A stretch of DNA of 64,000 nt from Somniosus microcephalus (taxonomy: Eukaryota), in the NCBI GenBank assembly GCA_052327205.1, contig CM126207.1:46376001-46440000 (forward strand), read 5' to 3'. This document shows positions 17,070-17,290 of this stretch, piece after piece. Each line of letters begins with the position of its first letter. Positions within the stretch are counted from its first letter, which is position 1. The notes under the pieces are model-generated. The model was not told the DNA's origin and ran no database searches. It saw nothing but the letters and a program-made list of their open reading frames with translations. The position numbers and the translations under genes were made by a program.

Positions 17070-17290
17070 TTTGAAGGCCCTGTTAAACAGAGGCCCGGGC
17101 TTCTGCATGGCACCAAAGGAATTTGCAGAATTGCACAGCATGCGTGATGCATATAGGGATTATTCATGTGGTGATGGCCGCAATTGGCCTCTCATGTACA
17201 TAAGAAAGAAGTGTTCTGAATATGGCCTTAAAGGCCCTGCCGTTCATTTGAAAGGAACAACTTCATAGCTCTGTAACAATTATGACATAA
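17070..17290. promoter_or_regulatory. SRR2 enhancer homolog (core 17136-17176)
   Basis: CAGCATGCGTGATGCATATAGGGATTATTCATGTGGTGATG compared with remembered mouse SRR2 CAGCCATTGTGATGCATATAGGATTATTCACGTGGTAATG. It lies ~3.7 kb downstream of the TSS. The outer limits are approximate. Confidence 0.8.

What the first reader, a model, noticed from the sequence alone, without database searches (positions are those of the whole stretch)
17136..17176. SRR2 homolog keeps the POU half-site but lacks the SOX half-site
The mammalian pluripotency element is CATTGT(G/A)-ATGCATAT. Here the octamer-like ATGCATAT (17147-17154) and the downstream GGATTATTCA.GTGGT.ATG are retained, but the SOX position reads CATGCGTG with no TTG core. 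That gives ATGCGTG-ATGCAT, possibly a second POU-specific half-site. Either the Oct4-Sox2 autoregulatory site arose by a few substitutions on an older POU/OTX-type enhancer, or sharks lost it.
Basis: partly seen in the sequence, partly recalled or inferred. Interest (0 to 1): 0.75.

Follow-up and report, generated by a model that had tools for sequence, protein, structure and literature searches.

The report
Shark SRR2 enhancer without SOX half-site
A shark and four relatives carry a clear copy of the mouse Sox2 stem-cell enhancer SRR2, described in print as evolutionarily young; it keeps the Oct-type site but lacks the canonical Sox site, so it likely works as an older POU/homeodomain enhancer to which the Oct4-Sox2 site was probably added later.

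Summary
The gene at 13634-14566 encodes Sox2, 100% identical to a shark cluster. 2.6 kb past its stop lies a block matching the mouse SRR2 core in 32 of 34 paired letters (30 of 32 counting the two blocks alone; chance about 6e-9). The octamer-like ATGCATAT and GGATTA are kept; the SOX TTG core is not. Four relatives also lack it, so this is neither an error nor a private variant. The 'second POU half-site' is not conserved: 3 of the 4 read T at 17143, the letter mouse has there. That state is one deleted base from the mouse element and one mismatch from the published Sox-Oct string, so weak Sox2 cooperation is not excluded. Gain versus loss of the SOX half-site could not be polarised (no chimaera, gar, coelacanth or chicken sequence reached); I put gain at about 0.6. 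No activity or binding was tested, and SRR2 is dispensable for Sox2 in mouse ES cells.

The parts
13634..14566 (+). sox2 coding sequence, 310 aa, single ORF
   Evidence: 100% identical over 100% to P0001, named Sox-2 of Heterodontus francisci / Scyliorhinus canicula; 85% to quail and alligator SOX2
17108..17210 (+). Slow-evolving core of the SRR2 homologue
   Evidence: run X15: 1 listed substitution in 103 bases against 34 in 476 outside, Fisher p = 0.012 (on the 35 of 37 rows shown; limits chosen after looking)
17139..17146 (+). Position of the mouse SOX half-site; reads CATGCGTG, no TTG core
   Evidence: C>T at 17143 in X6, X15, X17, not in X22; no deletion in 17139-17159 in any of the 4
17147..17154 (+). 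Octamer-like POU site ATGCATAT, same as mouse SRR2
   Evidence: no change listed in 4 relatives (40 of 85 rows shown)
17157..17162 (+). GGATTA homeodomain box, same as mouse; K50 (Otx/Pitx/Gsc) type by recalled consensus
   Evidence: no change listed in 4 relatives; factor assignment is recalled, not tested
17163..17176 (+). Downstream conserved block; the mouse CACGTG E-box reads CATGTG here
   Evidence: X17 has a further change at 17169 that removes the E-box form
10732..10946 (+). SRR1/N2 homologue upstream of sox2 (context and control): ATTA-1/2 core and POU/ATTA-3 site
   Evidence: 14 of 15 letters of the mouse POU/ATTA-3 motif at 10822-10836; 28-letter identity with the ATTA-1/2 core at 10732-10759, by eye

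Best explanation
This is the shark orthologue of the Sox2 3' enhancer SRR2, keeping the octamer-like site and the adjacent GGATTA box but not a canonical SOX half-site, and it likely acts as a POU-plus-homeodomain enhancer of sox2 in early ectoderm or forebrain progenitors with little or no Sox2 cooperation at this site. Shown: position, sequence homology, constraint, absence of the TTG core in the window and 4 relatives, and that C at 17143 is limited to part of them. Inferred: a POU factor (Brn/Oct6 class, or Pou5f1/Pou5f3 early) binds ATGCATAT as a monomer; a K50 homeodomain factor such as Otx binds GGATTA; the logic resembles the POU-dependent, SoxB-independent N2 enhancer on the other side of the gene. 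Inferred with least support (about 0.6): the SOX half-site was gained on the bony-vertebrate line, by loss of one base or a few substitutions, turning an old POU site into the Oct4-Sox2 composite.
For: Homology: 30 of 32 paired letters, chance about 6e-9; 3.75 kb from the 5' UTR-like start (identity of that start recalled) against about 4.1 kb from the promoter NF-Y site in mouse. Constraint: core slower than flanks. No TTG: full depth over 17139-17159 in all 4 runs, so no deletion; X6 and X22 have no G>T change at all, the single G>T of X15 is at 17370, and none is listed at 17142 for X17. The mouse POU site is functionally important and binds Oct4, Brn1, Brn2 (PMC3413107 passages). Two other mouse motifs are also missing: no TAAT between 16947 and 17158, where mouse has ATTA-4, and the CACGTG E-box; stepwise gain is simpler than three losses in a slow core (inference). 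N2 is intact in the window and is titled POU-dependent, SoxB-independent (reference title only). Chondrichthyan POU5 proteins partly support mouse ES cells and are broadly expressed early (PMC9492771).
Against: No activity, binding or chromatin data. With T at 17143 (3 of 4 relatives) the site is one mismatch from the published Sox-Oct string, the tolerance that paper used in counting, and the TGTG next to the octamer equals mouse, which could be a relic or a still-used weak SOX site. Partner factors often use cryptic half-sites (PMC4330359). In mouse, Otx2 did not repress the 5' enhancer in P19 cells, and none of 13 papers listed for Otx2+SRR2+Sox2 showed Otx binding in title or abstract start. 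All relatives laid are 92-96% alike in aligned parts and carry coded names, so no ray or chimaera is known to be among them; no bony-fish or chicken sequence was reached. SOX cores lie at 17060, 17276 and 17484, so Sox input elsewhere is possible (5 cores in 700 bases, about chance level by hand estimate).
Confidence: 0.55

Rival explanations
1. The jawed-vertebrate ancestor had the full Sox-Oct composite and cartilaginous fishes (or only elasmobranchs) lost the SOX half-site by a one-base insertion or a few substitutions, keeping a POU-driven enhancer.
For: One inserted G separates the state in X6, X15, X17 from the mouse element. SRR2 is reported undetectable in Xenopus and zebrafish (PMC5007870), so it decays readily. 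Shark POU5 already supports the Oct4 network in part.
Against: The core is slow in these fishes; ATTA-4 and the E-box would have to be lost as well.
Confidence: 0.22
2. The shark site is still a working, suboptimal Sox-POU composite: the POU factor recruits SoxB1 to a degenerate half-site, so the difference from mouse is one of strength only.
For: One mismatch to the FF0 string with T at 17143; cooperativity on canonical spacing is very strong for Oct4 and class III POU alike (PMC5314778 section 19).
Against: The mismatch is in the TTG core; the window and X22 carry a second mismatch in the core, showing weak constraint there; 39 one-mismatch and 354 two-mismatch strings occur in the window, so such a match means little.
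Confidence: 0.15
3. The site is a POU homodimer element (MORE+1 type).
For: One mismatch to MORE+1 in the window; only 2 such strings in 64 kb. Neural POU factors prefer MORE-type sites.
Against: 3 of 4 relatives lose the ATGC and T equals mouse, so C is probably derived; plain MORE fails by 4-6 mismatches; the MORE+1 string was built from the MORE consensus, not read from a matrix.
Confidence: 0.06
4. The block is a decaying relic with no enhancer activity in sharks.
For: Mouse SRR2 deletion has no effect in ES cells and no obvious developmental phenotype.
Against: 30 of 32 letters kept with mouse across the deepest jawed-vertebrate split, and slower than its flanks among relatives.
Confidence: 0.02

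Closest known systems
Mouse Sox2 SRR2 (3' enhancer; Tomioka 2002, Miyagi 2004/2006; seen through PMC3413107, PMC4265674, PMC5438634)
   Same: Position 3' of Sox2, octamer-like ATGCATAT, GGATTA box and downstream block.
   Different: No TTG SOX core, no upstream ATTA-4 Brn2/Emx2 site, no CACGTG E-box, one extra G after the octamer; activity untested.
Canonical Sox-Oct composite element (FF0; PMC5314778)
   Same: POU half matches all 8 positions; 4 of 6 SOX positions match in the window, 5 of 6 in three relatives.
   Different: The mismatches fall in the TTG core that defines the SOX half-site.
Sox2 N2/SRR1 enhancer
   Same: Ancient, POU-site-based enhancer of the same gene with adjacent ATTA boxes; present in this window. 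It is the 'works like' model.
   Different: Other side of the gene, unrelated sequence; reported down to fish, whereas SRR2 was reported only to chicken or platypus.
MORE / MORE+1 POU homodimer elements (PMC6677745)
   Same: One-mismatch resemblance to MORE+1 in the window.
   Different: Not kept in 3 of 4 relatives.

Membership tests
SRR2 orthologue | Lies about 4 kb 3' of the Sox2 start, same orientation | tested here: met
   3.75 kb from the 5' UTR-like start, 2.58 kb from the stop; mouse about 4.1 kb
SRR2 orthologue | Sequence homology to the SRR2 core | tested here: met
   30 of 32 paired letters by eye; chance about 6e-9
SRR2 orthologue | Upstream ATTA-4 (Brn2/Emx2) site of the mouse core | tested here: not met
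   no TAAT on either strand between 16947 and 17158
SRR2 orthologue | Enhancer activity in ES cells or telencephalic stem cells | not testable with these tools
   needs reporter or chromatin data
Canonical Sox-Oct composite (FF0) | POU half-site ATGYWWWD | tested here: met
   8 of 8 at 17147-17154
Canonical Sox-Oct composite (FF0) | SOX half-site HWTTGW directly upstream | tested here: not met
   fails at 17142 and 17143 in the window; fails at 17142 in X6, X15, X17
Canonical Sox-Oct composite (FF0) | Cooperative Sox2-POU binding | not testable with these tools
   needs EMSA; the Sox2 Spec-seq table of PMC5314778 could not be read
MORE / MORE+1 POU dimer site | Two ATGCAT half-sites, spacer 0 or 1 | tested here: inconclusive
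   MORE 4-6 mismatches; MORE+1 one mismatch in the window
MORE / MORE+1 POU dimer site | Second half-site conserved across relatives | tested here: not met
   T at 17143 in 3 of 4 relatives

The most novel reading that the evidence does not exclude
SRR2 is a jawed-vertebrate POU+OTX neural enhancer, and the textbook Oct4-Sox2 autoregulatory element arose on it by loss of a single base on the bony-vertebrate line; sharks preserve the pre-pluripotency state, so one base would switch ES-cell activity on.
Probability: 0.3. Interest if true: 0.7.

Novelty: new variant of a known kind. Interest (0 to 1): 0.47.

Why it matters
PMC5007870 uses the absence of SRR2 from Xenopus and zebrafish to argue that it is evolutionarily new, and PMC3024949 traces it only to platypus. 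A shark copy moves the block to the jawed-vertebrate ancestor and makes frog and zebrafish cases of loss or decay. Since shark POU5 proteins already partly support ES cells (PMC9492771), the pair of natural variants offers a direct test of whether the Oct4-Sox2 loop at Sox2 was completed in cis by a minimal change. The weight is limited: SRR2 is dispensable for Sox2 in mouse ES cells, shark retention of elements lost in teleosts is a familiar pattern (own knowledge), and public genome alignments may already show this block without anyone having written it up.

Tried and rejected
No own genome is held, so no genome-wide control. Search for other vertebrate copies failed: metagenome pattern scan 0 hits; viral contigs 51 hits and prokaryote genomes 13 hits, all chance by flank comparison; the best-looking one, L074, is a bacterial intergenic stretch. 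Sox2 C-terminus scans: 0 of 6 candidates in viral contigs; 22 of 102 in metagenomes, none of which matched the SRR2 region; the best, L003, follows the window only to about 15476. The composite-motif regex had a wrong spacer and was redone: 2 exact FF0 strings in the window (38304, 54798; 1.17 expected), neither near sox2, so no sign of a replacement composite site. A paired-domain (Pax) core and an AHR core overlap the site in the window (recalled consensuses) but both depend on C at 17143 and are lost in 3 of 4 relatives; rejected as conserved features. Exact look-up of the Sox2 protein found nothing. Three look-ups of earlier scan findings returned nothing. Tomioka 2002 and Iwafuchi-Doi 2011 are not held. 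Paper search was uninformative (none of the 40 listed of 4,846 contained SRR2).

Full report
Locus. The window holds a single-ORF sox2 at 13634-14566. Its protein is 100% identical to the representative named Sox-2 of Heterodontus francisci / Scyliorhinus canicula, 85% to bird and crocodilian SOX2 and about 69% to shark Sox3, so this is an elasmobranch sox2 locus, most likely a shark. The upstream SRR1/N2 enhancer is recognisable at about 10732-10946, which confirms that the proximal regulatory layout is kept.

Observation. The mouse SRR2 core is printed in PMC3413107 and, with the same core, in PMC5438634. By eye the window matches 14 of 14 letters at 17144-17157, has one extra G, then matches 16 of 18 at 17159-17176: 30 of 32 paired letters. 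The analytic expectation is about 6e-9 for the window (blocks picked after seeing them). None of 51 chance hits of a sub-pattern in viral contigs extended like this. The octamer is 3.75 kb from the 5' UTR-like start (that start identified from recall), against about 4.1 kb from the promoter NF-Y site in mouse (coordinates). Orthology is not in doubt.

Relatives. One search listed 24 runs of 9 coded organisms and one unlabelled; I laid 4 runs, one each of organisms I, B, E and F (X22, X6, X15, X17). The four are 92-96% alike in their aligned parts; their taxa are unknown, probably other sharks. All four cover 17139-17159 at full depth, so none has a deletion there. A TTG core would need T at 17142: X6 and X22 show no G>T change anywhere, the one G>T of X15 is at 17370, and X17 has one of two listed (17105) and none listed at 17142. 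The table shows 40 of 85 rows (35 of 37 for X15, 15 of 24 for X17, 11 of 30 for X6, 2 of 23 for X22), so other X6-only or X22-only changes in the site cannot be excluded. The one listed change in the half-site is C>T at 17143 in X6, X15 and X17. T is also the mouse letter in the ungapped alignment, so C is more likely derived in the lineage of the window and X22 (inference; the tree is unrooted and CpG decay in the other three is possible). In X15 the stretch 17108-17210 has 1 substitution in 103 bases against 34 in 476 outside (p = 0.012, post hoc limits).

What this does to the interpretation. The missing TTG core is shared, not private. The second POU half-site is not: the window string is one mismatch from MORE+1 (2 such in 64 kb), but three relatives lose the ATGC. 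With T at 17143 the site is one mismatch from the FF0 string of PMC5314778, and removing G17142 from that state gives the mouse element exactly. Mouse has one more C just upstream, so three substitutions are an alternative path. One-mismatch FF0 strings are common (39 in the window), so that match alone says little. Two further mouse motifs are absent: ATTA-4, which binds Brn2 and Emx2, and the CACGTG E-box linked to Myc. What has been kept since the shark-mouse split is the octamer-like site, GGATTA and the block after it.

Mechanism. Most likely a POU monomer on ATGCATAT with a homeodomain factor on GGATTA, driving sox2 in early ectoderm or forebrain progenitors without strong Sox2 cooperation at this site, as N2 is said to work. 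The POU step rests on mouse data; the K50/Otx assignment is recalled and untested; the tissue is borrowed from mouse. Overall 0.55. Rivals: loss in sharks 0.22, cryptic Sox-POU composite 0.15, POU dimer 0.06, relic 0.02.

Polarity. Not resolved. Scans of metagenome, viral and prokaryote collections gave no vertebrate SRR2. Conditional on no Sox cooperation in sharks I favour gain, because the core is slow and three mouse motifs are missing together; about 0.6 overall.

Against what is known. [quoted passage not shown] Searches showed no paper describing a shark SRR2 in their listings; of the 4 hits one was checked and 'shark' was an author name, the other three were not opened. Subscription papers, figures and genome-browser tracks were not searched, so novelty is provisional. 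SRR2 deletion leaves Sox2 unchanged in ES cells (PMC4265674, passages); an adult neural stem cell role is reported (PMC13307697, title and abstract start). Chondrichthyan POU5 proteins partly rescue Oct4-null ES cells (PMC9492771, passages).

What I saw of each paper: passages of PMC3413107, 10.1101/2024.09.19.613943 (10), 10.1101/2023.11.09.566464 (13), PMC5438634, PMC3024949, PMC5007870, PMC10602899, PMC13307697 (37, one reference hit only), PMC4330359, PMC4265674, PMC6677745, PMC9492771, 10.1101/150482 (54, not about SRR2 in the passages seen); passages and section 19 of PMC5314778, whose supplement, with Sox2 affinities that bear directly on the shark heptamers, could not be read (41). Tomioka 2002, Miyagi 2004/2006 and Iwafuchi-Doi 2011 were seen only as citations.

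Verdict. Real, conserved, a new variant of a known enhancer. Its age is the firm new point; the single-base origin of the Oct4-Sox2 site is a testable but unpolarised hypothesis. Interest 0.47.

Noticed in passing
window 10732-10946: SRR1/N2 enhancer homologue, with the ATTA-1/2 core identical to mouse over 28 letters, the POU/ATTA-3 site at 14 of 15, and a second octamer-like site at 10939-10946.
   Followed up: partly
window 17415-17516: A second conserved block 270 bases past the SRR2 core (kept as a separate aligned piece in X17). It holds a string at 17454-17466 resembling the SRR2 half-site region, whose CpG at 17463 reads T in all 4 relatives, and a SOX core at 17484-17488.
   Followed up: partly
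window 17114-17128: AAAGGAATTT matches the mouse core upstream of the composite in 9 of 10 letters by eye, and runs into an octamer-like ATTTGCAG that mouse lacks.
   Followed up: no
window 13294-13301: A perfect octamer ATGCAAAT in the GC-rich sox2 promoter, between CCAAT boxes.
   Followed up: no
window 54919-58872 (-): Uninterrupted 1317-aa ORF that looks by eye like a Gypsy-type LTR retrotransposon gag-pol, about 40 kb downstream of sox2.
   Followed up: no
window 48406-49416, 60155-60748, 60987-61451 (-): LINE-type reverse transcriptase fragments (by eye).
   Followed up: no
window 38304-38318 and 54798-54812 (-); 41315-41328 (-): Exact canonical Sox-Oct strings (2 found, 1.17 expected) and an exact compressed string; no sign yet that they are more than chance.
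   Followed up: partly
L003 1165-2037: A metagenome contig with a vertebrate sox2 3' end that shares three conserved blocks with window 14603-15476, the longest 69% over 283 bases.
   Followed up: no
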